A DNA stretch of 37,304 nt from positions 1 to 37,304 of the forward strand of contig JALAGF010001744.1 in the NCBI GenBank assembly GCA_030167865.1. The letters are read 5' to 3'. The stretch comes from Craspedostauros australis (taxonomy: Eukaryota). The first letter of the stretch is position 1; every line of letters starts with the position of its first letter. Made by a program: the position numbers and the translations under genes. The notes beneath the pieces were generated by a model. The model worked only from the letters and a program-made list of their open reading frames with translations. It searched no databases and was not told where the DNA came from. This document shows positions 7,472 through 30,201 of the stretch, one piece after another.

Positions 7472-8653
7472 ATGACTCCACAAGAAATCATCCCGGTGCC
7501 CGCGGTGGGCAATGGAAACGCCGCGGCATCCAAACACCCAAGCGAGGTGGCAGATGTCGATGCCGATGACGATGTGGCTGATCCCAAACAGCAGCAGGAG
7601 TTGCAACAGCCGGCGCAGCAGCAGACGAAGAGGGCCTTCAGCGAAGCGGGCGGCGATGAAGGGGAGTTCATCAACGGCGACACGGAACCGACGCCGTCGG
7701 GAAAGAAGCGCGGCAAGTACGTCACGTACAAGAAGTACTACAACGAGCGCCAGCAGATATACCCGTGGTTGGAGGAACCCGATCCGCGCGACATCATTCT
7801 GGCGCGTCAGCTGCTGTCCAGCGACCGCATGCCATGGGAGGGGAACATCCGCAAGAGCTGGGAGGTGCTCGTGGCCACCATGAAGCTGTACCATCCCATG
7901 CTCTTCGGGGACAACTACAGCGGCCGCAAGGCGCAGGCACGATGCATGGAGCTCATCCAGTACGCCAACCGATTCAACAAGGAGGCGTCGCTAAGGGGAG
8001 ACACCATGGATTACGGTGAGACCCTGCGCCTTTGGACCAAGGTCAGCGATCGCCATCAGCGCTTCCAGGATCAGAAGCAGGTGGGACCGTATCCGAGTTC
8101 CCAGCACGCGACGCCGACGCAGATCAAACCAGCGGCGACAACGCCGGCATCCGCCATGAGAACCACCGCGATCAACTACGCAGACGTGCCGCAGCGACAA
8201 CCCCATGCGACAGCCATCCTGCCGGCGGCACCACGACCCGCGACGAAGATGCCTGCACCCAAGATGTCCCGGACGCGCCACGCGAGTCCCAACTATGCTG
8301 CCGCGAAACCATCCTCCGACGCGACGTCGCCCTACGCAATCAAGGACGACGACGCGGAGTTCGACAGGGATCGGCCACGCACGAGTTCCATCGACGCCAA
8401 CACCGTCTCGGCTTTGACAGACGCGCTGGACGACATGAAGAAGGCATTCCAGAATCACAAGGAAGAGACGGATCGTCGGTGGGAAGAGCGCAAGGAATCG
8501 GAGGACCGGCGCTTCCAGATCCAGGAGAAGCAGATCGAGATCACGTCCAACATGGCCAAGTCCATGACCAAGACGATCGAGCAACAGCAGCACCTGCTCA
8601 ATTTGCTCATCGAGCAGCAGCAGGAACAGAAACAGAAGTCATTGAGTATATAG
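7472..8653 (+). CDS. Myb/SANT-like (Harbinger-associated/trihelix-type) DNA-binding protein with a C-terminal coiled coil
   Basis: Long ORF with coding-like codon use; ATG at 7472. Helical domain DIILARQLL..MPW..SWEVLV..SGRKAQARCMELI; C-terminal EETDRRWEERKESEDRRFQIQEKQ..QQQHLLNLL. The CDS is well supported; the family call is inference. Confidence 0.6.
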   Translation: MTPQEIIPVPAVGNGNAAASKHPSEVADVDADDDVADPKQQQELQQPAQQQTKRAFSEAGGDEGEFINGDTEPTPSGKKRGKYVTYKKYYNERQQIYPWLEEPDPRDIILARQLLSSDRMPWEGNIRKSWEVLVATMKLYHPMLFGDNYSGRKAQARCMELIQYANRFNKEASLRGDTMDYGETLRLWTKVSDRHQRFQDQKQVGPYPSSQHATPTQIKPAATTPASAMRTTAINYADVPQRQPHATAILPAAPRPATKMPAPKMSRTRHASPNYAAAKPSSDATSPYAIKDDDAEFDRDRPRTSSIDANTVSALTDALDDMKKAFQNHKEETDRRWEERKESEDRRFQIQEKQIEITSNMAKSMTKTIEQQQHLLNLLIEQQQEQKQKSLSI

Positions 8654-12723: not shown

Positions 12724-14124
12724 ATGAAAGGGAGGAAGAGCGGTGATGGCAGGACCGTTCCATTTGCCGGCGCTCATGGTCGCAACCGCACCAATGACAG
12801 CGGCACTCATCGCAGCTGTCACGTGCTGCGCTACCGATGCCTGCAGGCGGCATTCTTCGTCTTCCTTGCCTTCGTGTGGACCATCAACCTCACGCTGTCG
12901 GACCAACCCATTCATCAATCCACCATCACCACCGATTCCAAGCTCCTTTCGCCGAATCAGCCGTCCAACGAATGTTATCCGAGAGTGCGGGAGGATGATA
13001 TGCCCATCATGGTCCGTGATGCCAACGCTGGCATCAGCATCGGAAGCAGCAATGGCAGCAGCAATGCCAATGACAAATTCCAGCTGAAGGTCCCGTTCTA
13101 CGTCTACACCAACGAACTCAACTGGTCCAACATGACCAGCTGCGGCGTGCCCATCGGACAGACGGATTACCCAATGACGAAGCATGCCGATGACTATTGG
13201 ATGTATCAGAGTGCGATGCAACATCCCATGAGGACGGACGATCCAGAGCAGGCCAAGCTCTTCTTCGTACCCTTGTATATGAATGCAATTGGTCGTTCGA
13301 TATCCAAAACGGATTACCATCTGTGCATCCCATCGTCGGACGGCAAGCACACCAGATGCTTCGATCGCGAACATCCGGGATCGTTGTATAGATGGGTCGA
13401 TACTGTCCTCGCAGAATCTCCATATTTTCAACGCAACCGAGGCAAGGATCACGTGCTTGTCGCGTCCCACTACGTCCTCAAGCGACGTTCGCTGCAATTC
13501 ATTGCCTACAACAATCTCCTGCGTTGCAATCGGGTCATTTTTGAGAACTTCCCGCAGCAGCCCTTTTGGGTACCCGGCCGCGTCGAGATACCCAGCCTTT
13601 ACAATGCCAATCACATGGGATGCACTCCTGTTGAAACCAAGACGTCGGACTTCGCCATGATCGCATCCATGCTCGATCGGCCCACCTTCAAATCGCGTCA
13701 CAACATCTGCAGGTGGCTGCGGGAGGATGCTGATCAGTACTCCGTCGGTCATTGTGGAGAGGGAGACATGTGTCCTGTCCTGGCCACTTCCAAATTTGGT
13801 TTCCATCCCCGTGGCGACACCTTGGGATCGAACCGTATCATGGACACCATCCTGAGCGAGACTATCCCGTTGTTTACGGAGCAAGAGCAGTATGATATCC
13901 TCCCCGATTTCATTCCTTTCCGTGAGATGAGCTACTACATCGATTCATATTCGTATGAATCGTTCACCAAGACGATGCACGAGCTGTCTGCTGTATCGCA
14001 ACAGGAATACGATGAGAAGATGGCGGTGTTACGGAAGTACAAGGACAGATGCAACTTCATGACGGGTGAACCTTTCGATGCGTACATGACGAGCTTTGCT
14101 CGCAAGTTGGGGCTGCAACCGTAG
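12724..14124 (+). CDS. Exostosin-like glycosyltransferase (GT47), copy 1, type II membrane protein
   Basis: TM anchor AAFFVFLAFVWTI. GT47 motifs HPMRTDDPEQAKLFFVP, SPYFQRNRGKDHVLVASH and SKFGFHPRGDTLGSNRIMDTILSETIPLF. Confidence 0.9.
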   Translation: MKGRKSGDGRTVPFAGAHGRNRTNDSGTHRSCHVLRYRCLQAAFFVFLAFVWTINLTLSDQPIHQSTITTDSKLLSPNQPSNECYPRVREDDMPIMVRDANAGISIGSSNGSSNANDKFQLKVPFYVYTNELNWSNMTSCGVPIGQTDYPMTKHADDYWMYQSAMQHPMRTDDPEQAKLFFVPLYMNAIGRSISKTDYHLCIPSSDGKHTRCFDREHPGSLYRWVDTVLAESPYFQRNRGKDHVLVASHYVLKRRSLQFIAYNNLLRCNRVIFENFPQQPFWVPGRVEIPSLYNANHMGCTPVETKTSDFAMIASMLDRPTFKSRHNICRWLREDADQYSVGHCGEGDMCPVLATSKFGFHPRGDTLGSNRIMDTILSETIPLFTEQEQYDILPDFIPFREMSYYIDSYSYESFTKTMHELSAVSQQEYDEKMAVLRKYKDRCNFMTGEPFDAYMTSFARKLGLQP

Positions 14125-14804: not shown

Positions 14805-16397
14805 ATGCGGCAGGTCGAGAGCGCCGGAAGGAAGAGGACCGACAGGCCAACAGGAGCACCCAGCTCGCCCAGCGATCGCTCCAACACGATGAGAGGGAGA
14901 ATCGGGAGCACTAGCAGCAGCAACACCAGTAGCAGTACCAGCAGCAGCAGCAGGACTCTTCCCTTTGCTGGTGCCCATACGCTCTTGCACAGCCGCAATC
15001 ACAGCAATGACACTTCCAATGGCGACGGCGGTGACGATGATGGCAACGGCAATAGCAATACCAGCGACATCGACAGCCAACGACATCATGGACACAGCCA
15101 TCGCAGCTGCCATTCACTTCTGCAGCAGTGCCATCCACCGCAAAATCGATGTCTCAAGGCGACATGCTTTCTATTCATTGCCTTCATCTGGACCGTCAAT
15201 TTCATGTTGTCCGGGCAATCCATCCATCAATCCACCATCACCACCGATTCCAAGCTTCTTTCGCCGAATCAGCCGTCCAGCGAGTGCTATCCCAAAGTGA
15301 GAGACGACGACATGCCCATCATGACGACGGATAGAAGCGCGGAAGATAAATTCCAGCTGAAGGTCCCGTTCTACGTCTACGCCAACGAACTCAACTGGTC
15401 CAACATGACCAGCTGCGGCGTGCCCATCGGACAGACGGATTACCCAATGACGAAGCATGCCGATGACTATTGGATGTATCAGAGTGCGATGCAACATCCC
15501 ATGAGGACGGACGATCCAGAGCAGGCCAAGCTCTTCTTCGTACCCTTGTATATGAATGCAATTGGTCGTTCGATATCCAAAACGGATTACCATCTGTGCA
15601 TCCCATCGTCGGACGGCAAGCACACCAGATGCTTCGATCGCGAACATCCGGGATCGTTGTATAGATGGGTCGATACTGTCCTCGCAGAGTCTCCATATTT
15701 CCAACGCAGCAAAGGCAAGGATCACGTGCTGGTAACATCCCACTACGTCCTCAAGCGACGTTCACGGCAGTTCATTTCCTATGGCAACCTCCTGCGTTGC
15801 AATCGGGTCATTTTTGAAAATTTTCCACAGCAGCCCTTTTGGGTGCCTGATCGCTTCGAAATACCGAGTCTCAGAAACGCCAATCACATGGGATGCACTC
15901 CTGTTGAAACCAAGACGTCTGACTTCGCCATGGTCGCATCCATGCTCGATAGGCCCACCTTCAAATCGCGCCATAATATCTGCAGGTGGCTGCGGGAGGA
16001 TGCCGATCAGTATTCTGTTGGCCATTGTGGAGAGGGAGACATGTGTCCGGTCCTGGCCACTTCCAAATTCGGTTTCCATCCCCGTGGCGACACCTTGGGA
16101 TCGAACCGTATCATGGACACCATCCTGAGCGAGACTATTCCTTTGTTTACGGAGCAGGAGCAGTATGATATCCTCCCCGATTTCATTCCTTTCCGTGAGA
16201 TGAGCTACTACATCGATTCATACTCGTATGAATCTTTCACGAAGACGATGCAAAAGTTGTCAGCTGTATCACAACAGGAATACGATGAAAAGATGGCGGT
16301 GTTACGGAAGTACAAGGACAGATGCAACTTCATGACGGGTGAACCTTTCGATGCGTACATGACGAGCTTTGCTTGCAAGTTGGGGCTGCAGCCGTAG
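14805..16397 (+). CDS. Exostosin-like glycosyltransferase (GT47), copy 2, tandem paralog
   Basis: Same GT47 motifs and TM anchor. Catalytic region nearly identical to copy 1 at an offset of 2273 bp. ATG at 14805 (alternative 14889). Confidence 0.9.
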   Translation: MRQVESAGRKRTDRPTGAPSSPSDRSNTMRGRIGSTSSSNTSSSTSSSSRTLPFAGAHTLLHSRNHSNDTSNGDGGDDDGNGNSNTSDIDSQRHHGHSHRSCHSLLQQCHPPQNRCLKATCFLFIAFIWTVNFMLSGQSIHQSTITTDSKLLSPNQPSSECYPKVRDDDMPIMTTDRSAEDKFQLKVPFYVYANELNWSNMTSCGVPIGQTDYPMTKHADDYWMYQSAMQHPMRTDDPEQAKLFFVPLYMNAIGRSISKTDYHLCIPSSDGKHTRCFDREHPGSLYRWVDTVLAESPYFQRSKGKDHVLVTSHYVLKRRSRQFISYGNLLRCNRVIFENFPQQPFWVPDRFEIPSLRNANHMGCTPVETKTSDFAMVASMLDRPTFKSRHNICRWLREDADQYSVGHCGEGDMCPVLATSKFGFHPRGDTLGSNRIMDTILSETIPLFTEQEQYDILPDFIPFREMSYYIDSYSYESFTKTMQKLSAVSQQEYDEKMAVLRKYKDRCNFMTGEPFDAYMTSFACKLGLQP

Positions 16398-16617
16398 GAG
16401 TTGATGAGAACGATGGAACTGATGGAGGTGGAGGAAGGTTGGTGCATCGTACAAGTTTCACAGTGTAGAGCATGTCGCACAATAGAGCATTGTAAAATAC
16501 AACATATTTGTATTACTCTTGGAATAGAGTACTGTCATCTGCTGTGTTTCTGCCGAGATGCATAATGAAAATACTAAAATCACACGCTAACGTACGGTAC
16601 TCTGGAGTACTACTAAT

Positions 16618-18423
16618 CTAAGTCAAGATCGCTGGATTGTCGGCGTCTGCTTGCGACTGTGCTTCTGCAGCCTTTGTTTCCTCGCACTCTTCGCGAAGTT
16701 CCTCCAAGATCTCATCGCGCGCCAGCTGTTCGATGGAGGTCACCAAGCAGTACTTGAGGAAGGTTTGCGGCGCCAACACCAACTGCCCGGCCGAGACCAG
16801 AACGTAGAATCCAAACACCATCAGCTCCGGCACGAGCAAATCCGGGTTGCCCACATTGTCGGCATGCTGCGTCAGCGCGCTGATGTCGCGCGCCACGATC
16901 TGCGTCCCCCACAGCACGATCTGCGAGATGACCAGCCAGATCTGGAACTTGATGGATTTGATGTACAGCTCCGGCCCCGCCGCCCCGGCCTTGCCGAACA
17001 GCCGCTCCTGATCGTTCGTGGCCGGTTCACCGAACTGCGATTCGATCCACCCGAAGATGCCGGGCGAGGAATCGAAATTGCGCAGCAGGTCGTCGTCCTC
17101 GTACTTGGGGGGCAGCAACTGGACCTCGCACGAACTCTGCGAATCCTTGACGAGGATCGGGGTCAGCATCTGCATGATGGAGTTCAGCTTCCAAAAATTC
17201 CACCACCCCCAGGTCCAACCCACGAAGGCGGCGAACGTGCACACCGCGAAGTTCTCGGGCGTTCCTAGAAAGTATCCGCTCGACGCGAATGCGTTGTGGG
17301 ATGCCGCCGACACGACGTCGCGTGAGACGTCAATGGAATTGGCCACGGCCAGAGCCGGGATGAGCGGCAGCCACGTGAGCGGCGACAGCTCGACGATCTC
17401 GGCCAACTTCTCACCGAAGATCTTGGAAAAGTAGAGATCGATGCGAAAGTCGGCGGGGACCTTGGCGGAACGGATCAACCGCTCGCGCACGACGAGCGCC
17501 TCGGCCTTGATCTGCGTGTCGGTCATGCGCAGTTCGTCCCACAGCGACGGTGGCGGCACCGTGCGGACGGCCTGTCGGATCTCATCCTCCGTCAAGACGC
17601 CGTCGCCATCGAGATCGACGGGGACGCTGGGTACGTTGAGAAAGGCGGCCAGCTCGGCCAATTCGACAACGCCGTCCTGGTTCTTATCAAGGACGGCCTT
17701 GCGGAATTCAAGCAACGACGCGAGCTTCTTAAGGACGAGAAAGACGGTCAACCCGGCGACGCAGAAGAAGGCGACTCCGACCTCAAAGAAGGTGTCGTGC
17801 AGAAACTCGAACGTTTCCAGCAAGATCTCGCCGTTGCCGAGGAATTCCTCGCTGATTTGTTCGACGATCATGCCGAAGGGCCCGTTGACGACGAGGGTGC
17901 CCAGCAACAGACCGATGAAACCGAGTCCGCCGATCTCTCCCAAGATGGAATCCAGTACGGGCATGAGGGTGGTGGGCAAGGTTTTGCGCAAATTCTGGAT
18001 GGTCATCTCCCACGAATAGAGGAGGGCCACGATGGAGACCATTATGAGGGATGACCAGACGGTTGGACTCTGCAGGATGGTTTCAAAGACCCCGATGGAT
18101 TCATGCGCGGAACGCAGGGTGGTGGGAGTTGACTGGAAATGACTCGTTCGGTGTTTGGATTGGGTATCATGGAAGATGGTGGCAGCGGCGGTCGATGGAG
18201 AAGATGGATGGTGTTCCATGCGGCCTCTGTGGTTGATGACGTTGGTGCCAACGCCGGTGCTTGTGGTGACCTGGGTCATGGGAGCAAACGCATGCACCAT
18301 GACTGGGGATGGAAAGGAAGGACCCATGGTCGTCATCAGCAGAGACATCAGCAGGGCCATCCAGGCATACTCGTACGCTGATATTCTGCCATAGCGGGGA
18401 ACTGAGAAGCGGGAGGACTTCAT
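16618..18423 (-). CDS. MLO-like multi-pass membrane protein with two EF-hands and a bipartite plastid-type leader
   Basis: LDSILGEIGGLGFIGLLL resembles MLO LEKIKxELMLLGFISLLL. FEFLHDTFFEVGVAFF resembles LHQLHIFIFVLAV. RERLI..FRIDLYFSKIFGEKLAEIVELSPLTW resembles RxGFI..FDFHKY..RSLEDDFKxVVGISxxLW. EF loops DKNQDGVVELAE and DLDGDGVLTEDE. Leader motif VMVHA|FAP. Start at ATG 18423 or 18360. Confidence 0.75.
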   Translation of the reverse strand: MKSSRFSVPRYGRISAYEYAWMALLMSLLMTTMGPSFPSPVMVHAFAPMTQVTTSTGVGTNVINHRGRMEHHPSSPSTAAATIFHDTQSKHRTSHFQSTPTTLRSAHESIGVFETILQSPTVWSSLIMVSIVALLYSWEMTIQNLRKTLPTTLMPVLDSILGEIGGLGFIGLLLGTLVVNGPFGMIVEQISEEFLGNGEILLETFEFLHDTFFEVGVAFFCVAGLTVFLVLKKLASLLEFRKAVLDKNQDGVVELAELAAFLNVPSVPVDLDGDGVLTEDEIRQAVRTVPPPSLWDELRMTDTQIKAEALVVRERLIRSAKVPADFRIDLYFSKIFGEKLAEIVELSPLTWLPLIPALAVANSIDVSRDVVSAASHNAFASSGYFLGTPENFAVCTFAAFVGWTWGWWNFWKLNSIMQMLTPILVKDSQSSCEVQLLPPKYEDDDLLRNFDSSPGIFGWIESQFGEPATNDQERLFGKAGAAGPELYIKSIKFQIWLVISQIVLWGTQIVARDISALTQHADNVGNPDLLVPELMVFGFYVLVSAGQLVLAPQTFLKYCLVTSIEQLARDEILEELREECEETKAAEAQSQADADNPAILT

Positions 18424-18993
18424 TCTGCCAGTTCCATCAATTCTGCTGTTGCTTGAGAGTCTGCAACGTATAGTAGACACTCTGCGAGTTTGTAGAATAT
18501 TTCACTCCACTTGATGGCTACAACCGACAACAAATGAACAATTGTCGGCGATGTTGATGTTGATGGCGATGTGAATGCTGATGGTGCAGAGTATGTACGA
18601 CCTCTGCACTAAGAGTGTATGGTATGCAGTCTGGAGTGTTGATCTTTGTGACAGTGCCGTCTTTCTCTGTCACACCCCTGCAATGCCAACGAACTGATGT
18701 CACCATCGCACCTTCAGTCGCAACTGAGCAGCACACCCAAACACCACAACATGATGGTATGTGATGTCACATGATGCGCATTTGTTCGCGACGGGGAGTT
18801 CCTGGAGTTTGTGCCGAAGTTGAACTTTGCCGTTGTTTTGGAGACACGACGTCACACATTGATGGATCGTTGATTCATTCGACTACAAAAAGTGAGAAAC
18901 GAATCTTTCCAGATCTTTCTGCGATGGAGCGGGAAGAGAGAGCAGAGAGTGGTCATAATCTGGCAGCGCTCTCACTCTGGACATACCACAACT

Positions 18994-19026: not shown

Positions 19027-20187
19027 ATGGATCCATCGCACCAACCCAACAGCAACGTCGAGGAGCAAGATGGCCACCAGAAGCAGACGCTGTCTGTTCC
19101 CATCATCGATCTCTCCCAATCCGACAGCGATCACCAACTGGCGCGGTCCATCGCGCATGCCTGTTCCACCATCGGATTCTTTCAGGTCCTTCACCACGGC
19201 ATCCCGCCCGCGTTGATCCAACGCTTCCGTCAACAATGCAAGCTCTTTTTCGCCTTGCCGCGCGACGTCAAGCTGCAGCTCAAACGCAACGCGTCCAACG
19301 CGCGCGGGTACTTTGACGACGAGCTGACGAAGCAACGGCGCGATTGGAAGGAGGCCTTTGATTTTGGAGTGCAAGGCGAACACTGTCTGGATGGATCGAA
19401 CCAGTTTCCTAGCGAGCAGATCTTGCCACAATTCCGTGACGTCATGATGCAGTACTTTGATGCGTGCGCCGAACTATCGCATCGTTTGGCCGTGCTCATG
19501 GTGCGCGGGTTGCGGCAGGGCAATACCGCTGCTGCTGTGGATGAAGACGACATACTGGACGACCTGAAACACCATCATTCCAGTTACATGCGCATGAATT
19601 ACTATCCGCCGTGTACCGAAACGCAGGCCACCGAGCATGAATCTCCGTTGGGCATCTCGCCGCATTACGATGCCGGATTCCTCACGGTCCTGCTTCAGGA
19701 TGACGACTGTCATTCCCTGCAAGTGCAGCCACCGTCCACCAATGGCGAAGCGATGCCATGGATCACGGTGCATCCGGAGCCTGGCGCACTGACGATCAAC
19801 ACGGGCGACATGGCGCAGATCTGGTCCAACGGGCGGTACAAGGCGCCGTTGCATCGCGTCTTGACCAACAACGCCCGCGTGCGGTATTCGACGCCGTTCT
19901 TCTACAATCCCAGCTACCGCTGCATGGTGCAGCCTGTCATCGTAGCTGACGGCAATCATCAAGAGACCAACTACCATCTTGTGTCGTGGGGGTACTTTCG
20001 TGCGTTGCGCTTTGCCGGCGATCTGACGGATCTGGGGGTGGAAATTCAGATCTCGCACTTTGAGCGGGATGACGAGAACGGCAAGGAGCACAGCCATCTT
20101 CGCAAACAGCAGCTCTTTCTCGAACAAGTCGATTTGGACGAGCCATTTTCTGTGGAGAAGCACAGGCAACTACTCACGATGGCTTGA
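19027..20187 (+). CDS. 2-oxoglutarate/Fe(II)-dependent dioxygenase (IPNS-like, DIOX_N + 2OG-FeII_Oxy)
   Basis: VPIIDLS..ACSTIGFFQVLHHGI; RMNYYPPC; facial triad HYD...H (SPHYDAGFLTVLLQD, LHRV); RxS in RYS; INTGDMAQIWSNGRY. Confidence 0.93.
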   Translation: MDPSHQPNSNVEEQDGHQKQTLSVPIIDLSQSDSDHQLARSIAHACSTIGFFQVLHHGIPPALIQRFRQQCKLFFALPRDVKLQLKRNASNARGYFDDELTKQRRDWKEAFDFGVQGEHCLDGSNQFPSEQILPQFRDVMMQYFDACAELSHRLAVLMVRGLRQGNTAAAVDEDDILDDLKHHHSSYMRMNYYPPCTETQATEHESPLGISPHYDAGFLTVLLQDDDCHSLQVQPPSTNGEAMPWITVHPEPGALTINTGDMAQIWSNGRYKAPLHRVLTNNARVRYSTPFFYNPSYRCMVQPVIVADGNHQETNYHLVSWGYFRALRFAGDLTDLGVEIQISHFERDDENGKEHSHLRKQQLFLEQVDLDEPFSVEKHRQLLTMA

Positions 20188-21248: not shown

Positions 21249-24200
21249 ATGACCACCTTCATCGCAGCAGCAGGCCGAGACAGACTCATTTCACCACCAC
21301 CAATGTCTCACCATCCCATCCAGAACACCGCAAACAGCGGCGGCAGGGAATCCGAACCGCCACAACATCAACATCAACTTCGGGATCATCGCCACCAACC
21401 ACAGCAACAGCAATTGGAACAGCATGCAAGGAAGAAGCCGCGAGAAGACCATCCGCAACCTCCTCATTCATCCACAACAAGCATTCCGCAGCAAGGCGAA
21501 GCATCCAACATTGAAGCCAACATTGAAGCCAACAGCACCGATGCCATTACGGCACTGACACCAAACCAACATCATCAAACAAAAACACCACAACCACCAC
21601 AAGTATTGCGAGAAGCATCGCCATCCATTCAACTCGAGCATCAAACACGGTTTGGGTCATCCTCTTCAGTGCACGTGACACCAAGACAAACATCAAGAAT
21701 ACCAAGCACGACCACGACGTCAACAGCAATCGCAACAGCAACAGCAATACATGTCACAGCATCTACCACAGCTATTTCCAACAGAAGCTCTCTTTGCTCA
21801 AACCTCACACCACAGAAAGAACAAGAACAAGTACCCCCGCAAGCAACGACACAAGTACCAATACAAACACCGACATCAACACCAACACAAGCCGATGACA
21901 CCATGATGATCACACAACGATCACGACCAACGACAACCGCGATGATGGCGAAGTCTGGTGCGACAGGGAAAGGCACGACACCAGAAACAGTACTGGCACA
22001 CCATGTCAACGCGATGATGGCAACCGGGACACGACTGAAGGCATCGTTTCTGACGGACGATAACAGACGATCCATCAGCTCCCACCAACAACAAAACGGG
22101 ACTTGCCGTGTTGCCGCCACGTCTGAAGAAGTTGGCAACGCCACCACGCCGACGCGCCACGATAGAACGAGTTCGAAGCAAATCGAGGACCACGTCGCCG
22201 TGGACACGTCTCGTGAACCAGACGAACAAAACATCAATGCAAGTGCGCAACATCAGAACATGCCAGCGCACAGGATGATGGATTCGGAGATTCAGGAACG
22301 ATGCACGCCAACATCTGCCAACGCAGCCAATCGTGTTGTTGTTGTTGGTGGTGGTGCTGCCGACAATCATGGACAACAGACACTCATGGGTGCTGAGTCA
22401 AGCGATGCCAACGCACTCAGCGTCGTCAACACGAGTGATGGGCGTCAACATCGGCAACAGCAGGAGCTCCAGCAGCAGGTACAGCAGAGTCAGAACATGC
22501 CAATACAACAACAACCTCTCCTGTCAAGCGCAATAACTGTGGTTGTAGCACCAGCGACGCTGCAGGTTGCTCGCACTCCAGAGACAAACTCTCATCCATC
22601 AACTGCCACTCGGCATTCTGCCAACACCGTCACGAATGGCAACAGAACAACAACGACAACGCAGAGCGCAGGTTTCAATCATTGTGAAGGATCAGAACTT
22701 TCACGTGGAGCTTCGCAAAGCATTTCAGGTGGAACCCAGCCTTCACTTCCACCTTGCACACAATCAACAGTCCAAGGTCCAGCTCCCATTGCTGCCAAAC
22801 GTGTCCAAGTGCCGAATGGACAACGCACAAGTGCAAACCAACAAGCCGCACTTCCTTCGTCTCATTCTTTGTCATCAGCAAGTCCAGGACAGAACTCATT
22901 GAAGACTCCTGTTGCTGAAGTACGCCCAAGTGCATCGCTCATGCCGCAACCGTCCCCTTCGGACGCAAACCCACCGAATCAGCAGGCAGCCAGTACCAGC
23001 AGTACAAGCACCACCAGCACAAGCACAAGCACAAGTACAAGCACTTCCAGTCCAACCGCGCAGATTGCAGCTGCATCGCCATCAGAATCGAACAAGCGCA
23101 CGCACGCTGCAGCATTCGCGTTGGAAACTTCATCGGCCAGCGCCACATCTTCAAGCAGTCCCAGAACGCCGACCGATTCTACGTCTCCCGATCGCAACTG
23201 CAAGACTGCCAGAATCGTGCCTTTCAACGGTGCATCTCAGACAACCCCGGAATCTGTCACGTCCTTCACACCAACGCAGAACACTCCCAGCATGTCCATT
23301 CTGTCCACCGTCACGGCGACAGCGACACCGTCGTCGGCATCGCCATCGCAAACGAAGAGTCCCCAAAAGCGCGGCAGGAAGAGGAAACAGCAACAAGGCA
23401 CGAACACGGGACGCTGGACTCCGCAAGAACACAGGGCGTTCCTCGAAGGCCTCCGCATTTGCGGTCGAGAATGGAAGCGCGTCGCAAGCCGCATCCCCAC
23501 GCGAACGTCCGCCCAAATTCGCTCGCATGCGCAAAAGTACTTTGCCAAGCTGCAGCGCGAGCATGAAGAATCAGCGTCGGCCGGTATGTTCCTCACTGCG
23601 TCGCATCTGGCCGATCCGCGGTTGATCGCTGTGCAGCCGAATGCAAACAACGCACCGTCCAACAGTCAAGCCGCATCCATTCCAAACGCACAACTGCCAG
23701 TCTCCGTGCAGCGCAACGTGCAGCGAATACTCGAGAATCCATCGGCGGTGCAGCAGGAAGTCGAGACAACGCTTCAGGCTCTGCGACGACGGTACCAGAA
23801 GCTGCAGCGGCGTCTCGAACGACAGCAACGCAAGCAACAAGCGCCGCGGCCGTCCACCAATTTTGACCGACAGAAACAGTTGCTGGAGACCCGCTCGTCC
23901 ACCAGTCCTCGTAGTCTTCCGCCCACGCCGACCGAAGCACAGGGCGAACTTCAGATCGTTGTGGAGGTCGAGACGTCCACCAATCCACCCGCAAGCAGCA
24001 ACGTGGCAGCCGCGCAACGCGCCGATACCGACGTCCGATCCATCCAATCCTCCGCGTCCTCGCGCGAGCTCGACAAGGAAGAACTGATTGCGCTGCACGT
24101 GCTGGGTGGCAATCTGCGCCGCGATCCCAACTTCCAGAGCACGGCCTCGCACACGTCCCACCTCTCGTCGCTTGCTTCTGTGCACGAGCCAGCGGCGGCA

Positions 24201-24302
24201 CCGCAACATCAACGCGACGCTGCGAGCGGCAGCAGCAGCAGCACCGGAAGTAGTCAAGAACATACAACGACCACCACAACCAACAGCCATGAACAAGAAT
24301 GA
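21249..24302 (+). CDS. Large 1R-Myb transcription factor, SHAQKYF class (1017 aa)
   Basis: NTGRWTPQEHRAFLEGLRICGREWKRVASRIPTRTSAQIRSHAQKYFAKL, preceded by NLS-like KRGRKRK and followed by a coiled coil. About 700 aa of S/T/Q-rich N-terminus; true start uncertain. Confidence 0.9.
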   Translation: MTTFIAAAGRDRLISPPPMSHHPIQNTANSGGRESEPPQHQHQLRDHRHQPQQQQLEQHARKKPREDHPQPPHSSTTSIPQQGEASNIEANIEANSTDAITALTPNQHHQTKTPQPPQVLREASPSIQLEHQTRFGSSSSVHVTPRQTSRIPSTTTTSTAIATATAIHVTASTTAISNRSSLCSNLTPQKEQEQVPPQATTQVPIQTPTSTPTQADDTMMITQRSRPTTTAMMAKSGATGKGTTPETVLAHHVNAMMATGTRLKASFLTDDNRRSISSHQQQNGTCRVAATSEEVGNATTPTRHDRTSSKQIEDHVAVDTSREPDEQNINASAQHQNMPAHRMMDSEIQERCTPTSANAANRVVVVGGGAADNHGQQTLMGAESSDANALSVVNTSDGRQHRQQQELQQQVQQSQNMPIQQQPLLSSAITVVVAPATLQVARTPETNSHPSTATRHSANTVTNGNRTTTTTQSAGFNHCEGSELSRGASQSISGGTQPSLPPCTQSTVQGPAPIAAKRVQVPNGQRTSANQQAALPSSHSLSSASPGQNSLKTPVAEVRPSASLMPQPSPSDANPPNQQAASTSSTSTTSTSTSTSTSTSSPTAQIAAASPSESNKRTHAAAFALETSSASATSSSSPRTPTDSTSPDRNCKTARIVPFNGASQTTPESVTSFTPTQNTPSMSILSTVTATATPSSASPSQTKSPQKRGRKRKQQQGTNTGRWTPQEHRAFLEGLRICGREWKRVASRIPTRTSAQIRSHAQKYFAKLQREHEESASAGMFLTASHLADPRLIAVQPNANNAPSNSQAASIPNAQLPVSVQRNVQRILENPSAVQQEVETTLQALRRRYQKLQRRLERQQRKQQAPRPSTNFDRQKQLLETRSSTSPRSLPPTPTEAQGELQIVVEVETSTNPPASSNVAAAQRADTDVRSIQSSASSRELDKEELIALHVLGGNLRRDPNFQSTASHTSHLSSLASVHEPAAAPQHQRDAASGSSSSTGSSQEHTTTTTTNSHEQE

Positions 24303-25442: not shown

Positions 25443-26933
25443 ATGGCGCCACAACGCGAACAACCACACGGCGACAAAGACGCTTCAAATGACAACGACG
25501 ACTACGACAACAACGATGGCGAAAATCATCGCCGCCACCACGAGAACACTGTGCGAGAAATTCTGCATGATCCACTACTACTAACAACCAGGGATCTGAG
25601 TGGAGAAAGCAACGGAGTAGCCAACGTCGATGTCAACGCCAACACCACCAACGAAGCGTTTCGCACTCACGCCGCAACGACCACGAGCACTACCAATGGC
25701 GATGGTGACAGCGATGCTACCAGCACCGACCAATTGCCCACATATATCCACATGTCGCTGATTGTGTTTCTGATAGGCGGAATCATTTACTTGGTGTTGG
25801 CTGTTTGGGACTTGGCGTCGCCGCTGGATGAGGATGACGCTGCGGCGACCAATGCGACAATCAGCGGCAGCCACCGCGCCATCCCGCCCATTGACGATTG
25901 GGATTGGTACACCATCCTCACCGTGGTGGCGCCGCTCATGTATGTTCTCAACTTCGTTCTGGATATCTACGAGATTCAGACGAATCCGGACGGCACCGTC
26001 AACACGCCCTACCCAACAGGCCAGAACATAATGATTCCAATCGGCCTGTTCGGCGTCGCCTCCGCTACGGATTTGCTCGGTTCCATTCTGTATTTGTGTT
26101 ACGGTACGGACGAGGACAAGGACGGCGACGGGGGCAGTGGCGGCCTTGACGCGGCCATCGCAAATGCAACGGCGGGCCTTGATGCGGCCATCGCAAATGC
26201 AACGGCGGCTTCGGAGTGGATGCAGAATCACACGCTCCTGGAGGCCGACGGCGTCACAGAAGACGCATCGTCGACATCGGGCTTCATTGCTTTCGCCAAA
26301 TACCTCGTCGACCATGATATACTGTCAACCGTGGCGGTGCACTTTTACCTGATCCAGGCGATAGCCGCGCTGTGGCCCGGCGACGGCAAGGAACGAGACG
26401 CAGGGTACTCACCCGCCAACAATTCCGAACCGGACGAGCATTCCGGGACAGCAGCAGCAGTAGCGGCGTCGCCTGAATCCTTCGTGGATGAACCGCAGAA
26501 TGACGACAACGACGACGCAACGAGCGCAGCGTCCTCCGGAGGTGATCGGGACAATTCGCTGTATAGGGCAGGCGACGCGTTGTTCTTCATCGGGTGCATC
26601 ATCGATGTCATCATCAGTTACCTTGACGTGGACGGTATGGAGACGAAGCACCAGCGCATGATGCAGGTGTGGGCGTTGGTGTCGGCCGTGCTGTGGTTCC
26701 TGGACGCCGTCTGTTACATCCTGGCGGGCATCATGGAGTATGACAAGGCGGTAGCTGAACTGCTGCTTGATGACTTCGTGAGCAACGATGATGCTGAGGC
26801 GGCAGACGAGAAGCATGTGGCGGCTTCAGCAACCACGAGTACAGCAACTGCAACGGCATTGGAAGGACGGGATCCGCTGGTAGCGTATGGGCAAGAGGAG
26901 CACGAAGAAGAGGAGACCCGCATCGTTGTGTAG
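25443..26933 (+). CDS. Uncharacterised 6-TM membrane protein built from three helical hairpins
   Basis: ATG at 25443. Six hydrophobic segments separated by acidic loops with several N-x-S/T sequons. Confidence 0.8.
   Translation: MAPQREQPHGDKDASNDNDDYDNNDGENHRRHHENTVREILHDPLLLTTRDLSGESNGVANVDVNANTTNEAFRTHAATTTSTTNGDGDSDATSTDQLPTYIHMSLIVFLIGGIIYLVLAVWDLASPLDEDDAAATNATISGSHRAIPPIDDWDWYTILTVVAPLMYVLNFVLDIYEIQTNPDGTVNTPYPTGQNIMIPIGLFGVASATDLLGSILYLCYGTDEDKDGDGGSGGLDAAIANATAGLDAAIANATAASEWMQNHTLLEADGVTEDASSTSGFIAFAKYLVDHDILSTVAVHFYLIQAIAALWPGDGKERDAGYSPANNSEPDEHSGTAAAVAASPESFVDEPQNDDNDDATSAASSGGDRDNSLYRAGDALFFIGCIIDVIISYLDVDGMETKHQRMMQVWALVSAVLWFLDAVCYILAGIMEYDKAVAELLLDDFVSNDDAEAADEKHVAASATTSTATATALEGRDPLVAYGQEEHEEEETRIVV
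26142..26207 (+). repeat. In-frame 33-bp tandem duplication (GLDAAIANATA x2)
   Basis: Two copies differing only at GAC/GAT. Confidence 0.95.
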
Positions 26934-28623: not shown

Positions 28624-30201
28624 ATGATGCAGTCAACCACACCAAGGATGCTGTCGCAGAACTTCACGCCCACCAGAGCGGATGTGTTGTGCGGCCGCGA
28701 TCAGGAGAGCTACATGCACGGTGAGTTTGAGACTTGAGCAACGCTCGCTTGCAAACATCGCAAAATACGGCACCGTAATCGCACCCCATGTCAGCGTTTG
28801 CGCGTGTTGGGAAACTGCGCGTCGTCATCACCAATGCCATCATCACGATCTCTCTTGTGCTCACATTTTCATCTGCTTCCTTTCTCATCACGAAAAAACC
28901 GCGTCCTCGTTACCATTGTCACCGTTGCCACCACAACAACAAACAATAACGAAAACAACGCCATCAACATTATCGACAACCGCAATGATAACAAACAAAT
29001 AACAGAGGGAAACAGGATCCTCCGCAAGATCATCAAGGAGAGCATCCCAAGTTACGTCGCCGCCAAGAGCAAGGTGTCTAAGAGCCACATCGTCGCTTCC
29101 ATCGTCCGACAGATCCGCAACGTCAACCCCAACGGCGGCTTCGTTCGCAAGGATTTGGAGAGCCGACGGTGGATCGAGATCGGCGAGACGAAAGCCAAGG
29201 AGAAGGTCGGACAAGCCATCCGCATTGAGATTCGCAGATCGAAGACCAACTCTAAAAAAGCATTCATGAAGAGCTCCAAAACAACGACGGCGACTACAAC
29301 ACCACCAACAACGGCCAGCATCACATCAAAGAACAGCAGCACAATGAGCCAAACATCCAGCCCCTCTGTCTCGTCGGCAAACAGCATCGTCAAGCCGACC
29401 GACTTCGAATCGCAAACACCCATCCAGTCTGCCATGGCTTCTCTCCCCATCGACCCCGGTTTTGCCATGCCGACCAGGCATCAATCCACGAGGAGCATGT
29501 CAGCGCCTACGATCACATCTCTGTCCCAATTCCTCGGAGACGACAGCCTCCTCCTCCAGCCGGACCCAATCGATGGTCCTCTCACCAGAGTCGGAAGCAT
29601 GTACATGCCCCAGCAGGCCAAGAGGAACAGCGCGCCGGACCTGAGCATGAGCATGAGCATGAACGCCGTCAGCGGCAGTCGCAGCAACAGCACCACCACA
29701 CCGGCCCCGCTCTTCGATCAGGACTGCCAAACCTTCGCCAACGACATCTTCACGGACACGACAGCACCCATGAAGACACCGTCGTTCCATCCCATCGATT
29801 CGATCTTCCAGTCGCTGGAATCGTTCAACAACGGCTCCTCCGTGGAAGCATCGCGATCATTCGAGATGTTCGAAGCAGGAGCAGTTGGATCGTCCATGGA
29901 CGATGCGCTGGGAAACAGCAACATCAGCAACAACAACGGCGCCGCCAGCACCCCGCACCGCATCGCTCCCATCGACACAATGGCGTGCATGAACACCAGC
30001 GTGCGCGCCCAGTGCCAGAACCAGCGGCAGACAATGCAGGCAGCCTCGTCGCAGCAGCCACGATCGCAGCAGCGACAATCGCAGAACCAACCGATGAATG
30101 CCGCCGAAAGGTTGGCGGACAACTGCAACGTCCTGTCCTGGCAGATGAACTTCACGCCTATGCCGCTCATCGGAGACATTGGCGACTTCGACGATCTCTA
30201 G
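28624..30201 (+). CDS. DUF6824-domain protein, 2 exons (28624-28720, 29006-30201)
   Basis: Exon 1 DVLCGRDQESYMH, G|GTGAGT donor, CAG acceptor at 29005. The join gives HEGNRILRKII..Y..A..K..KS.IV..IVRQIR..GGFVRKD..WIEIG..AKEKVGQAIR, the motif set of this diatom-expanded family. Confidence 0.88.
28721..29005 (+). other. GT-AG spliceosomal intron (285 bp, phase 1)
   Basis: GTGAGT...AACAG; the splice restores the HxGN motif in frame. Confidence 0.85.

What the first reader, a model, noticed from the sequence alone, without database searches (positions are those of the whole stretch)
16618..18423. MLO-like channel with built-in EF-hand pair and a plastid-type leader: candidate Ca2+-sensing plastid channel
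Seen: about 7 hydrophobic segments; three motif blocks in MLO order (GEIGGLGFIGLLL; FLHDTFF; F-x-I-x-x-Y...IVELSPLTW); two canonical 12-residue EF loops (17653-17688 and 17581-17616) between TM3 and TM4; and a hydrophobic leader ending HA|FAP (18280-18294) followed by a Ser/Thr/His-rich stretch. Known: plant MLOs are plasma-membrane/secretory 7-TM proteins, some shown to be Ca2+ channels, regulated by calmodulin through the C-terminal tail. MLO-like proteins, some with EF-hands, occur in unicellular eukaryotes. ASAFAP-type motifs direct diatom proteins into the complex plastid. Inference: a self-regulating, calmodulin-independent MLO-like channel in a plastid membrane, a localisation I do not know to be described for this family.
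Basis: partly seen in the sequence, partly recalled or inferred. Interest (0 to 1): 0.78.

Follow-up and report, generated by a model that had tools for sequence, protein, structure and literature searches.

The report
Plastid-targeted MLO-like EF-hand membrane protein
This diatom gene encodes a seven-helix membrane protein, distantly similar to plant MLO calcium channels, that has its own calcium-binding loops and a conserved plastid import signal, making it a candidate for the unknown calcium route in diatom chloroplasts.

Summary
Window 16618-18423 (-) is an intact 601-aa ORF. It has 7 predicted TM helices, two canonical 12-residue EF loops at the stated coordinates in the TM3-TM4 loop, and a leader ending VHA|FAP.

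It belongs to a large family (286 representatives at E<=0.001). All source-named members are diatoms, plus one haptophyte record.

**Plastid targeting: well supported in silico.**
- The published ASAFind matrix scores A45|F46 at 7.96 for the cleavage site and 5.26 for the transit peptide (cut-off 2).
- An [AGSC]|F site is the best-scoring site in 62 of 88 family leaders.
- The model shows the leader as disordered.

**MLO kinship: plausible but remote.**
- P0001 has no PF03094 hit. 14 of 71 relatives give sub-threshold Mlo hits (best 17.7 bits, cut-off 24).
- These hits fall in two collinear blocks, and the extra spacing lies where the EF loops sit.
- Language-model neighbours are oomycete clusters that partly carry Mlo.
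- Topology is N-out/C-in, as in MLO.
- The land-plant hallmarks (four loop cysteines, CaMBD tryptophan) are absent.
- No solved structure resembles it.

Channel activity and Ca2+ gating are inference. I found no report of MLO-like proteins in diatoms or in plastids. Verdict: a new variant of a known kind, moderately to highly interesting.

The parts
16618..18423 (-). Complete single-exon CDS, 601 aa + stop (P0001)
   Evidence: Homologs align from about res 108 to 580 without gaps that would need introns. Upstream in-frame stop.
18289..18423 (-). Signal-peptide-like leader, res 1-45 (basic n-region, h-region about 17-33, c-region ending VHA)
   Evidence: Best 9-residue Kyte-Doolittle window scores 2.43, starting at res 22. 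Model helix 16-32. ASAFind-matrix cleavage-site score 7.96 at A45|F46; alternative S36|F37 scores 4.85. SignalP could not be run.
18103..18288 (-). Transit-peptide-like stretch, res 46-107, starting with F46
   Evidence: ASAFind transit score 5.26 against a cut-off of 2. 32% S+T, 5 K+R, 7 H, 2 D+E. pLDDT <50 over 37-103. Not conserved in sequence among orthologs.
17884..18069 (-). TM1-short loop-TM2 (res 119-180), including SPTVW and GEIGGLGFIGLLL; block A, equivalent to Mlo profile 7-71
   Evidence: Sub-threshold PF03094 stretches of P0194, P0218 and P0145 map here. Helices 120-148 and 151-179.
17725..17808 (-). TM3 (res 206-233) with FLHDTFF at its outer end; the helix extends to res 245 into the EF region
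   Evidence: H200-245; conserved E203, E206, F207, H209, F213
17653..17688 (-). EF loop 1, DKNQDGVVELAE (res 246-257)
   Evidence: canonical in 33 of 71 family members
17581..17616 (-). EF loop 2, DLDGDGVLTEDE (res 270-281)
   Evidence: canonical in 30 of 71, both loops in 28 of 71
17344..17505 (-). Conserved helices before TM4 plus TM4 (res 307-360: RER, DFRIDLYF, VELSPLTWLPLIP); block B, equivalent to Mlo profile about 237-291
   Evidence: PF03094 stretches of P0007, P0016, P0018, P0067, P0072, P0074, P0082 and P0096 map here with start offset 70, and P0078 with offset 69; P0182, P0206 and P0225 give longer stretches over the same region.
17191..17259 (-). TM5 (res 389-411), ending in the conserved W405/N409/K412 motif
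16966..17190 (-). Large K/R-rich loop 5 (res 412-486) with a beta-hairpin and the conserved LLPP, LFG.AG..GP motifs
16765..16965 (-). TM6 (487-511), short outer loop, TM7 (531-553)
16621..16764 (-). C-terminal tail (res 554-601): conserved TFL.YCLVTSIE, then an acidic helix; no Trp and no EF loop

Best explanation
This is a nuclear diatom gene for a precursor with three parts.

(1) A bipartite plastid-import presequence: an ER signal peptide cut at VHA|F46, then a Ser/Thr-rich, weakly basic transit peptide.

(2) A mature core of about 490 aa with seven helices. It is a remote relative of the MLO family and has the same topology: N-terminus on the trans side; loops 1, 3 and 5 and the C-tail on the K/R-rich cis side.

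(3) Two Ca2+-binding EF loops grafted onto the cytoplasmic-type extension of TM3, inside the loop that leads to TM4.

Most likely mechanism. The precursor enters the ER and crosses the periplastidial and outer envelope membranes; the +1 Phe licenses the latter step. It then integrates into the inner envelope (or thylakoid) membrane, with the EF loops, loop 5 and the tail facing the stroma. Ca2+ binding to the loops moves the TM3 extension and the conserved pre-TM4 helices. This gates a cation (probably Ca2+) conductance and replaces the calmodulin-to-C-tail regulation of plant MLOs.

Shown here: gene integrity, family conservation, EF-loop sequence, 7-TM model, charge asymmetry, and leader scores with their conservation.

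Inferred: the cleavage site, which plastid membrane it occupies and its orientation there, MLO homology (remote and sub-threshold), Ca2+ binding, any conductance and its gating.
For: **Gene and family**
- Intact ORF.
- 85 word-indexed hits and 286 representatives at E<=0.001 (169 at <=1e-10, 77 at <=1e-30).
- All source-named members are diatoms, plus a haptophyte record near the distant group.

**Targeting**
- ASAFind matrix (read): A45|F46 scores 7.96 (cleavage) and 5.26 (transit), against a published cut-off of 2 with F/W/Y/L at +1.
- 94 of 225 held proteins start with M and have at least 35 residues before TM1. After 6 near-identical leaders were dropped, 88 were analysed.
- 62 of these 88 have a hydrophobic h-region. 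43 of those 62 have an [AGSC]|F site just after it. In 500 shuffles the mean was 8.2 and the maximum 16.
- The best matrix site is [AGSC]|F in 62 of 88. Scores >=7 occur in 35 of 88 leaders, against a shuffle mean of 12.5 (max 20 of 88; 100 shuffles) and 37 of 423 internal windows.
- The leader region 37-103 is modelled as disordered.
- Precedent (passages of PMC5635587): the multi-pass transporters TPT4a/4b carry an ASA-FAP signal and sit in the inner envelope with a stromal C-terminus. TPT2 lacks the motif and stays at the periplastidial membrane.
- Plastid proteins have the +1 Phe and PPC proteins lack it (PMC4329603, PMC12136025).

**MLO likeness**
- PF03094 is the most recurrent non-EF family: 14 of 71 members at E<=1, best 0.0013 (17.7 bits). 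The next unrelated family hits 4 of 71.
- The stretches fall in two collinear blocks: P0001 119-180 to Mlo 7-71, and P0001 about 307-360 to Mlo 237-291. The offsets are about 112 and 70, and the 42 extra residues lie where the EF loops sit.
- With EF-hand clusters excluded, the three nearest named Atlas clusters carry PF03094 in 14%, 29% and 21% of members, with scores 0.87, 0.78 and 0.76 (lead only).
- Seven helices.
- 26 K+R in 244 residues on the cis side against 2 in 81 on the trans side; the same asymmetry holds family-wide. This matches the N-out/C-in topology quoted for MLO.
- A sister group of 8 rows has EF loops after TM7 in 7 rows. That is the C-terminal calmodulin-like fusion described for MLO-like proteins by Kusch et al.. 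Both EF positions are on the same membrane side.

**Ca2+ channel analogy**
- Passages of PMC13360292 report Ca2+ channel activity of several Arabidopsis MLOs in animal cells and calmodulin binding to the C-tail.
Against: **Against MLO membership**
- P0001 has no PF03094 hit even at E<=10. No family member reaches the 24-bit cut-off.
- None of the 85 hits has a precomputed Mlo domain.
- The sub-threshold hits come from homologous sequences, so they are not independent trials.
- Land-plant MLO hallmarks listed by Kusch et al. are absent. There is no Cys in any trans-side loop and no Trp in the C-tail. WxxWE after TM3 and FWFxxP before TM6 are not recognisable.
- My two attempts to bridge to Pfam-annotated MLOs found none.

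**Against the targeting reading**
- SignalP, ASAFind and HECTAR were not run. My matrix scan has a high background: 206 of 423 internal windows score >=5.
- The n-region of P0001 is unusually long (21 residues), and the c-region before A45 is long.
- 20 of 71 aligned members have N-terminal extensions with no detectable SP+xF. These may be gene-model errors or real differences.

**Against the Ca2+ sensor and channel reading**
- The EF pair is atypically compact.
- A nested clade of 23 rows lacks the loops, so Ca2+ sensing is not essential to the family.
- No evidence of conductance exists for any member.
Confidence: 0.55

Rival explanations
1. The family is plastid-targeted and binds Ca2+, but it is not related to MLO. 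On this view it is a lineage-specific 7-TM family of algae with red-derived complex plastids. Its weak Mlo hits reflect shared hydrophobic and compositional features of polytopic proteins, and its activity (transporter, receptor, scaffold) cannot be read from MLO.
For: - No member passes the PF03094 cut-off, and P0001 has no hit at E<=10.
- The land-plant hallmarks are absent.
- Atlas scores of 0.76-0.87 are leads only; shuffled proteins reach 0.8 a third of the time.
- No fold-level test was possible.
Against: - Mlo is by far the most recurrent non-EF family: 14 of 71, against 4 of 71 for the next.
- Two separate blocks, hit by different subfamilies, are collinear with the Mlo profile and correspond topologically: TM1-TM2 to the profile start, pre-TM4/TM4 to profile 237-291.
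- All three top named Atlas clusters carry Mlo.
- The helix count and orientation are the same.
- Sister-group members have the C-terminal EF fusion already described for MLO-like proteins.
Confidence: 0.25
2. The leader is only a secretory signal peptide or signal anchor. On this view the protein lives in the ER/chloroplast-ER, the periplastidial membrane, the plasma membrane or the vacuole, as plant MLOs do, and the Phe after the cleavage site is incidental.
For: - Plant MLOs are plasma-membrane or endomembrane proteins.
- SignalP and ASAFind were not run.
- The cleavage position in P0001 is ambiguous: S36|F37 or A45|F46.
- 20 of 71 aligned members have extensions with no SP+xF by my heuristic.
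- The family is absent from a 70-member Phaeodactylum plastid-transporter list, by motif search.
Against: - Both candidate sites in P0001 have Phe at +1.
- [AGSC]|F is the best-scoring site in 62 of 88 leaders and is far enriched over shuffles.
- The region after it is S/T-rich, low in acidic residues and disordered, as transit peptides are.
- PPC and ER proteins lack the +1 aromatic.
- The T. pseudonana catalogue model of this family is N-terminally truncated, which would explain its absence from genome-wide plastid lists.
Confidence: 0.12
3. The family is a plastid-targeted MLO relative but not an ion channel. On this view it is a Ca2+-regulated adaptor or regulator, for example of membrane contact, vesicle or lipid traffic, or protein complexes in the plastid. 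Many plant MLO phenotypes have been explained through trafficking rather than conductance.
For: - Channel activity of plant MLOs is so far 'proposed' from expression in animal cells.
- Kusch et al. note that the biochemical function was unexplored.
- No pore or selectivity motif can be named in this family.
- A 23-row clade lacks EF loops.
Against: - Charged and polar residues within or at the ends of helices are conserved: E163, E203/E206/H209, N377, N409, D513, E533. These are typical of transport proteins, but this is only weakly discriminating.
- In diatoms, EF-hands fused to plastid ion-transport proteins recur: KEA3, and the J43171 channel-type protein.
Confidence: 0.3

Closest known systems
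Land-plant MLO proteins (Pfam PF03094)
   Same: Seven TM helices, with the N-terminus on the trans side, the C-terminus on the cis side, and large cis loops 2 and 3. Weak collinear profile similarity over TM1-TM2 and pre-TM4/TM4. An SPTVW string at the start of TM1, where Kusch et al. list TPTW. Regulation by Ca2+ on the cis side: through calmodulin in plants, through intrinsic EF loops here.
   Different: Below Pfam's cut-off. No conserved trans-loop cysteines and no CaMBD tryptophan. EF loops are inserted in the TM3-TM4 loop. A bipartite plastid presequence replaces plasma-membrane/endomembrane residence.
MLO-like proteins with C-terminal calmodulin-like (EF-hand) fusions in green algae, oomycetes and Apusozoa (Kusch et al. 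2016, PMC4824068; passages read)
   Same: An MLO-like core with a covalently attached Ca2+ sensor. A sister group in my tree (8 rows, 7 with EF loops after TM7; one relative named as a haptophyte record) has this architecture. The nearest named Atlas clusters are oomycete clusters, the closest named EF-hand domain-containing protein, with Mlo on 14-29% of members.
   Different: Here the sensor sits inside the TM3-TM4 loop, not at the C-terminus. The paper does not mention diatoms (0 occurrences) or any plastid localisation.
Diatom KEA3 K+/H+ antiporter with C-terminal EF-hands (as described in PMC11663583; passages read)
   Same: A diatom plastid ion-transport protein that acquired EF-hands absent from its plant counterpart. 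The EF-hands are presumed to face the stroma and read stromal Ca2+.
   Different: An unrelated fold and family. KEA3 has experimental support (mutants), whereas this protein has none.
[quoted passage not shown] 2022, PMC9546453)
   Same: A predicted plastid-targeted channel-type protein with an EF-hand, sporadic in photosynthetic stramenopiles and haptophytes, with no Arabidopsis homologue.
   Different: A different protein. Its sequence in the paper's Table 2 shows two GYGD/GFGD-type pore loops (tandem-pore K+ channel type), and none of this family's core motifs occur in those tables.
Phaeodactylum TPT4a/TPT4b inner-envelope translocators (Moog et al. 2015, PMC5635587; passages read)
   Same: Polytopic membrane proteins carrying an ASA-FAP-type bipartite signal. 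Shown to sit in the inner envelope with a stromal C-terminus. This is the targeting precedent.
   Different: An unrelated transporter family. Localisation is experimental there and predicted here.

Membership tests
MLO (Pfam PF03094) | Match to the Mlo profile at or above the gathering score (24 bits) | tested here: not met
   P0001 has no Mlo row at E<=10. The best of 71 relatives scores 17.7 bits, E 0.0013. None of the 85 close hits has a precomputed Mlo domain.
MLO (Pfam PF03094) | Collinear similarity to the Mlo profile along the core (remote homology) | tested here: inconclusive
   14 of 71 members give sub-threshold hits in two collinear blocks (Mlo 7-71 and about 237-291). Atlas leads agree. 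A profile-profile test (HHpred) was not possible, because no MLO sequence could be obtained.
MLO (Pfam PF03094) | Seven TM helices, N-terminus extracellular/luminal, C-terminus cytoplasmic (Devoto 1999, as quoted in PMC4824068) | tested here: met
   Seven long helices in a model with pLDDT 84.5. K+R count is 26 in 244 residues on the cis side against 2 in 81 on the trans side; the same holds family-wide. The orientation is predicted, not measured.
MLO (Pfam PF03094) | [quoted passage not shown] | tested here: not met
   The trans-side loops 180-205, 368-388 and 512-530 of P0001 contain no Cys. Kusch et al. report that distant MLO-like proteins also largely lack them.
MLO (Pfam PF03094) | C-terminal calmodulin-binding domain with a quasi-invariant Trp | tested here: not met
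   The C-tail 554-601 has no Trp. The CaMBD is stated to be absent or diversified in algal MLO-like proteins.
MLO (Pfam PF03094) | Fold similarity to MLO structures or models | not testable with these tools
EF-hand (PF00036 and clan) | Profile match above the cut-off | tested here: met
   EF-hand_1 scores 27.6 bits against 25.4, with two stretches.
EF-hand (PF00036 and clan) | Canonical 12-residue loop with ligands at positions 1, 3, 5 and 12 and Gly at 6 | tested here: met
   DKNQDGVVELAE and DLDGDGVLTEDE. Both loops are canonical in 28 of 71 relatives.
EF-hand (PF00036 and clan) | Classical paired helix-loop-helix domain | tested here: inconclusive
   EF-hand_7 (pair) scores 17.8 bits, below 30. 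The loops start 24 residues apart, and the model shows no entering helix for loop 2.
EF-hand (PF00036 and clan) | Ca2+ binding | not testable with these tools
   Needs ITC, a 45Ca overlay or a mobility shift on recombinant loop 234-300.
Diatom bipartite plastid presequence (ASAFAP type) | N-terminal ER signal peptide | tested here: inconclusive
   Basic n-region, h-region with KD 2.43, model helix 16-32. SignalP is not available.
Diatom bipartite plastid presequence (ASAFAP type) | F/W/Y/L at +1 of the cleavage site, and ASAFind transit score >2 | tested here: met
   A45|F46 has cleavage score 7.96 and transit score 5.26. The alternative S36|F37 scores 4.85 and 4.32 (using the matrix). The sites were found by scanning, not by SignalP.
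Diatom bipartite plastid presequence (ASAFAP type) | [quoted passage not shown] | tested here: met
   Res 46-107: 20 S+T of 62, 5 K+R, 7 H, 2 D+E.
Diatom bipartite plastid presequence (ASAFAP type) | Conservation of the signal in orthologs | tested here: met
   43 of 62 h-region-bearing leaders have [AGSC]|F (shuffle mean 8.2, max 16). The best matrix site is [AGSC]|F in 62 of 88.
Diatom bipartite plastid presequence (ASAFAP type) | Experimental plastid localisation | not testable with these tools
   No localisation or proteomic detection was found.

The most novel reading that the evidence does not exclude
This family is the missing Ca2+ conduit of diatom (and other red-lineage complex) plastids. 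On this reading it is an MLO-type channel in the inner envelope or thylakoid membrane whose stroma-facing EF loops give Ca2+-dependent feedback. It would generate or shape the autonomous stromal Ca2+ elevations seen under high light and H2O2 in organisms that lack MCU and plastid GLRs. It would also be the first organellar MLO, and the first with a sensor built into the TM3-TM4 loop.
Probability: 0.18. Interest if true: 0.85.

Novelty: new variant of a known kind. Interest (0 to 1): 0.64.

Why it matters
Flori et al. 2024 (PMC11663583; passages read) showed that the chloroplast stroma of Phaeodactylum has its own Ca2+ signals under high light and oxidative stress. [quoted passage not shown] A conserved, plastid-targeted polytopic protein with intrinsic EF loops and remote MLO similarity is a concrete, testable candidate for that role. 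Several plant MLOs are reported to conduct Ca2+.

The family is missing from three sources:
- the 2016 MLO survey, which does not mention diatoms;
- a 2024 survey of diatom Ca2+ channels, where 'MLO' occurs 0 times;
- the 70-member Phaeodactylum plastid-transporter atlas, by motif search.

One likely reason is that reference gene models can lack the leader. The T. pseudonana catalogue model starts inside TM1.

The family also shows the EF sensor in two different places, the TM3-TM4 loop and the C-tail, both on the same membrane face. That is a natural experiment on how MLO-type proteins are regulated.

Tried and rejected
2. **PDB sequence-profile search with A1.** Only 4 EF-hand proteins, at E 0.9-1.9.
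3. **Bridging to Pfam-annotated MLOs.** The A2 profile search returned 2 proteins. P0160 (1-520) returned 5, all EF-hand-only, one named as a Coccolithus record.
4. **Own genome.** None is held, so paralogs in the same genome could not be counted.
6. **Expression.** No RNA holder is listed; the one run, X1, is 'RNA?' by guess. Its contigs cover 16568-17230 (100% identical, ending 50 nt past the stop) and 16300-16495. The rest of the gene has no cover. This is not used as evidence.
7. **Phatr3_J43171 as this gene or its ortholog.** Rejected: it is a different, K+-channel-type sequence.
8. **T. pseudonana organelle proteome (PMC6683858).** The only occurrence of ID 11041 is in a FASTA listing, the file was cut when stored, and no detection row was seen. 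'THAPSDRAFT_11041' occurs in 0 papers.
9. **ASAFind supplementary tables.** They may bear on whether any model of this family was ever predicted as plastid.
10. **SignalP, ASAFind, HECTAR, TMHMM and HHpred proper.** Not available. I substituted a scan with the published matrix, hydropathy, and the AlphaFold model.
11. **Complex prediction** (oligomer test) and the second structure job were not used. No claim here rests on binding.
12. **Tree.** The careful tree search did not finish, so the tree quoted is the quick one, with midpoint rooting for drawing only.
Full report
**What is there**

Window 16618-18423 on the minus strand is one uninterrupted ORF of 601 aa. An in-frame TGA lies 27 codons upstream with no in-frame ATG between, so M1 (18423) is the earliest start. 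Homologs align continuously from about residue 108 to 580, so no intron is needed.

- EF loop 1, DKNQDGVVELAE, is residues 246-257 (17653-17688).
- EF loop 2, DLDGDGVLTEDE, is residues 270-281 (17581-17616).
- H44-A-F-A-P48 is 18280-18294.

Pfam on the single sequence finds only EF-hand models. EF-hand_1 scores 27.6 bits (cut-off 25.4) with two stretches; the pair model EF-hand_7 scores 17.8, below its cut-off of 30. There is no Mlo row even at E<=10.

**The family**

The word-indexed search gave 85 proteins at E<=0.001. The best is 59% identical, and every source-given organism name is a diatom: Bacillariaceae, Stephanocyclus, Skeletonema, Thalassiosira, Epithemia, Cyclotella, Dactyliosolen. 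None has a precomputed Mlo domain.

The exhaustive phmmer search found 286 representatives at E<=0.001, 169 at <=1e-10 and 77 at <=1e-30. Full-length members go down to 27-33% identity.

A quick IQ-TREE of 71 members was built; the careful search did not finish, and the midpoint root is for drawing only. It separates two groups with 100% SH-aLRT support:
- A small group of 8 rows. Seven of them carry canonical EF loops after TM7. One close relative is named as a Coccolithus (haptophyte) record and has no leader.
- A main group of 63 rows.

Inside the main group, both loop EF motifs are canonical in 28 of 71 members (loop 1 in 33, loop 2 in 30). A nested clade of 23 rows has lost them.

**Structure and topology**

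AlphaFold2 on the 71-sequence alignment gave mean pLDDT 84.5 and pTM 0.79. It shows seven long helices: 120-148, 151-179, 200-245, 348-367, 389-420, 483-518 and 527-561. It also shows a short leader helix at 16-32 and disorder (pLDDT <50) over 1-14 and 37-103.

Charge asymmetry is strong. Loops 146-152, 234-347 and 412-486 and the tail hold 26 K+R in 244 residues. The pre-TM1 segment and loops 180-205, 368-388 and 512-530 hold 2 in 81. The same pattern holds across the family.

This gives an N-out/C-in topology, with the EF loops, the large loop 5 and the tail all on the K/R-rich (cis) side. The C-terminal EF-hands of the sister group are on that same side.

EF loop 1 sits directly on the extension of TM3. 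Loop 2 follows 24 residues later, without a modelled entering helix. The pair is therefore unusually compact.

**Plastid leader**

The rule is taken from passages of Gruber et al. 2015 and 2025. It requires an ER signal peptide, then F/W/Y/L at +1 of the cleavage site, then a hydroxylated, low-acidic, net-positive transit peptide. Phe is crucial, and periplastidic-compartment proteins lack it. The ASAFind transit score cut-off is 2.

I read the published scoring matrix and scanned P0001 with it:
- VMVHA|FAPMTQ (A45|F46) scores 7.96 for the cleavage site and 5.26 for the transit peptide.
- The alternative GPS|F37 scores 4.85 and 4.32.
- Both candidate sites have Phe at +1.

Residues 46-107 are 32% S+T (12% in the mature part), with 5 K+R, 7 His and 2 D+E.

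Family-wide analysis started from the 225 proteins held at that point. Of these, 94 begin with M and have at least 35 residues before TM1. Six were dropped as near-identical leaders, leaving 88.
- 62 of the 88 have a signal-peptide-like hydrophobic window. 43 of those 62 have an [AGSC]|F site just after it. In 500 shuffles the mean was 8.2 and the maximum 16.
- With the matrix, the best site is [AGSC]|F in 62 of 88.
- Scores >=7 occur in 35 of 88 leaders. Shuffled leaders average 12.5 (max 20; 100 shuffles), and internal windows reach this in 37 of 423.
- The scan has a high background at lower scores: 206 of 423 internal windows score >=5. Only the high-score excess and the combination with an h-region are meaningful.

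SignalP, ASAFind and HECTAR themselves could not be run.

Moog et al. 2015 supply the precedent that this signal works on polytopic proteins (passages). TPT4a/4b carry ASA-FAP and sit in the inner envelope with a stromal C-terminus. TPT2 lacks the motif and stays at the periplastidial membrane. TPT1 has a signal peptide only and stays in the cER.

**MLO relationship**

No member passes Pfam's Mlo cut-off, but the signal recurs.
- PF03094 is hit at E<=1 by 14 of 71 members (best 0.0013, 17.7 bits). It is the top non-EF family; the next unrelated family hits 4 of 71. A fifteenth protein outside that alignment, P0206, also hits it.
- Mapped to P0001, the stretches form two blocks.
- Residues 119-180 (TM1-TM2) correspond to Mlo profile 7-71. 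This block comes from three distant members.
- Residues about 307-360 (pre-TM4 helices plus TM4) correspond to Mlo 237-291. Eight main-group members share a start offset of 70 and one has 69. Three distant proteins give longer stretches over the same region.
- The blocks are collinear. The 42-residue difference in offset lies where the EF loops are inserted.

The protein Atlas gives independent leads. With EF-hand clusters excluded, the three nearest named clusters are oomycete clusters carrying PF03094 on 14%, 29% and 21% of members, with scores 0.87, 0.78 and 0.76. The tool warns that scores under 0.9 are leads only.

Topology matches the N-out/C-in 7-TM description of MLO. P0001 has SPTVW at the start of TM1, where Kusch et al. 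list TPTW.

Against membership:
- The four conserved luminal cysteines and the CaMBD tryptophan listed by Kusch et al. are absent. That paper says distant MLO-like proteins also largely lack them.
- A profile-profile test was also impossible, because no bona fide MLO sequence could be obtained.

I rate remote homology at about 0.7.

**Literature position**

Kusch et al. 2016 (passages) report MLO-like proteins in oomycetes, Ectocarpus, alveolates and others, and C-terminal calmodulin-like fusions in green algae, oomycetes and Apusozoa. The word 'diatom' occurs 0 times in that paper, and no plastid localisation is described.

Other searches found the following:
- 'MLO' with 'Phaeodactylum' returned only unrelated uses (listing).
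- 'MLO', 'EF-hand' and 'diatom' returned 3 unrelated papers (listing).
- 'MLO', 'calcium channel', 'chloroplast' and 'calmodulin' returned no organellar MLO by the listed titles and abstract openings (listing; one paper read in passages).
- 'MLO-like', 'algae', 'EF-hand' and 'calcium' returned only Kusch et al..
- A 2024 survey of diatom Ca2+ channels has 0 occurrences of 'MLO'.

Liu et al. 2022 list an EF-hand 'ion channel' (J43171) among 70 predicted Phaeodactylum plastid transporters. Its sequence in their Table 2 is a different, K+-channel-type protein, and this family's motifs are absent from those tables, whose cells are cut at 400 characters.

The T. pseudonana catalogue model of this family (Thaps3a_11041) begins inside TM1, so it has no leader. 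That would hide the family from genome-wide plastid predictions. Supplements that I could not read in full may bear on this: the ASAFind result tables, the Phaeodactylum catalogue and the T. pseudonana proteome tables.

**Mechanism proposed**

Shown: an intact, conserved gene; canonical EF loops; a 7-TM model; cis/trans charge asymmetry; a high-scoring and conserved ASAFAP-type leader.

Inferred:
- The precursor enters the ER and crosses to the plastid because of F46.
- It integrates into the inner envelope or thylakoid membrane, with the K/R-rich face towards the stroma.
- The EF loops, mounted on the TM3 extension and linked to TM4 by the most conserved cis-side helices (RER, DFRIDLYF), read stromal Ca2+ and gate a cation, possibly Ca2+, conductance.
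- This does in cis what calmodulin does on the C-tail of plant MLOs.

Diatom plastids repeatedly show EF-hands fused to ion-transport proteins, such as KEA3 and J43171, which makes stromal Ca2+ control of ion flux a plausible theme.

**Why it matters**

Flori et al. 2024 (passages) found autonomous stromal Ca2+ signals in Phaeodactylum. They note that MCU is missing from diatoms and GLRs are absent from P. tricornutum, so the route of Ca2+ is unknown.

**Surroundings**

The neighbours are unrelated eukaryotic genes. There are two tandem GT47 exostosin-domain genes (12724-14124 and 14805-16397, +) and a 2OG-Fe(II) oxygenase (19027-20187, +). There are also a DCC1-like protein, a Myb protein, a DUF6824 protein and a TPR protein. 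No functional linkage is expected or seen.

**Verdict**

This is a new variant of a known kind: an MLO-like family with an in-loop Ca2+ sensor and a plastid address.

Confidence by element:
| Element | Confidence |
|---|---|
| Plastid targeting | about 0.8 |
| Remote MLO homology | about 0.7 |
| Ca2+-regulated channel | about 0.35-0.4 |
| Composite explanation | 0.55 |

Noticed in passing
window 18420-18437 (-): An out-of-frame ATG at 18437 opens a 5-codon mini-ORF (M-E-L-A-E). Its TGA stop (18422-18420) overlaps the main ATG (18423-18421). This may be a uORF affecting start-site use.
   Followed up: no
window 12724-14124 (+) and 14805-16397 (+): Two tandem ORFs both carry an Exostosin GT47 domain (76.2 and 78.6 bits). 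This looks like a local duplication of a glycosyltransferase gene just downstream of the finding's 3' end.
   Followed up: partly
window 16300-17230: In run X1 (kind guessed as RNA) one contig ends at 16495, 98 nt past the stop of the GT47 gene. Another spans 16568-17230 and ends 50 nt past the stop of the MLO-like gene. The two genes converge.
   Followed up: partly
family alignment A3 / tree: The Ca2+ sensor sits in different places in different clades: in the TM3-TM4 loop (28 of 71 with both loops), after TM7 (7 of 71, all in the 8-row sister group), or nowhere (a nested 23-row clade that still has SP+xF leaders).
   Followed up: partly
PMC4329603 supplementary gene catalogue (Thaps3a_11041): The reference T. 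pseudonana model of this family starts inside TM1 and so lacks any presequence. N-terminal mis-annotation may hide plastid membrane proteins from genome-wide predictions.
   Followed up: partly
window 28834-30201 (+), 21249-24302 (+), 2746-3654 (-), 32162-32974 (-): Other ORFs carry DUF6824 (63.9 bits), a Myb DNA-binding domain within a 1017-aa ORF, a DCC1-like thiol-disulfide oxidoreductase domain, and TPR repeats. Several long ORFs (4841-6694 -, 7472-8653 +, 25443-26933 +) have no Pfam match at E<=1e-5.
   Followed up: no
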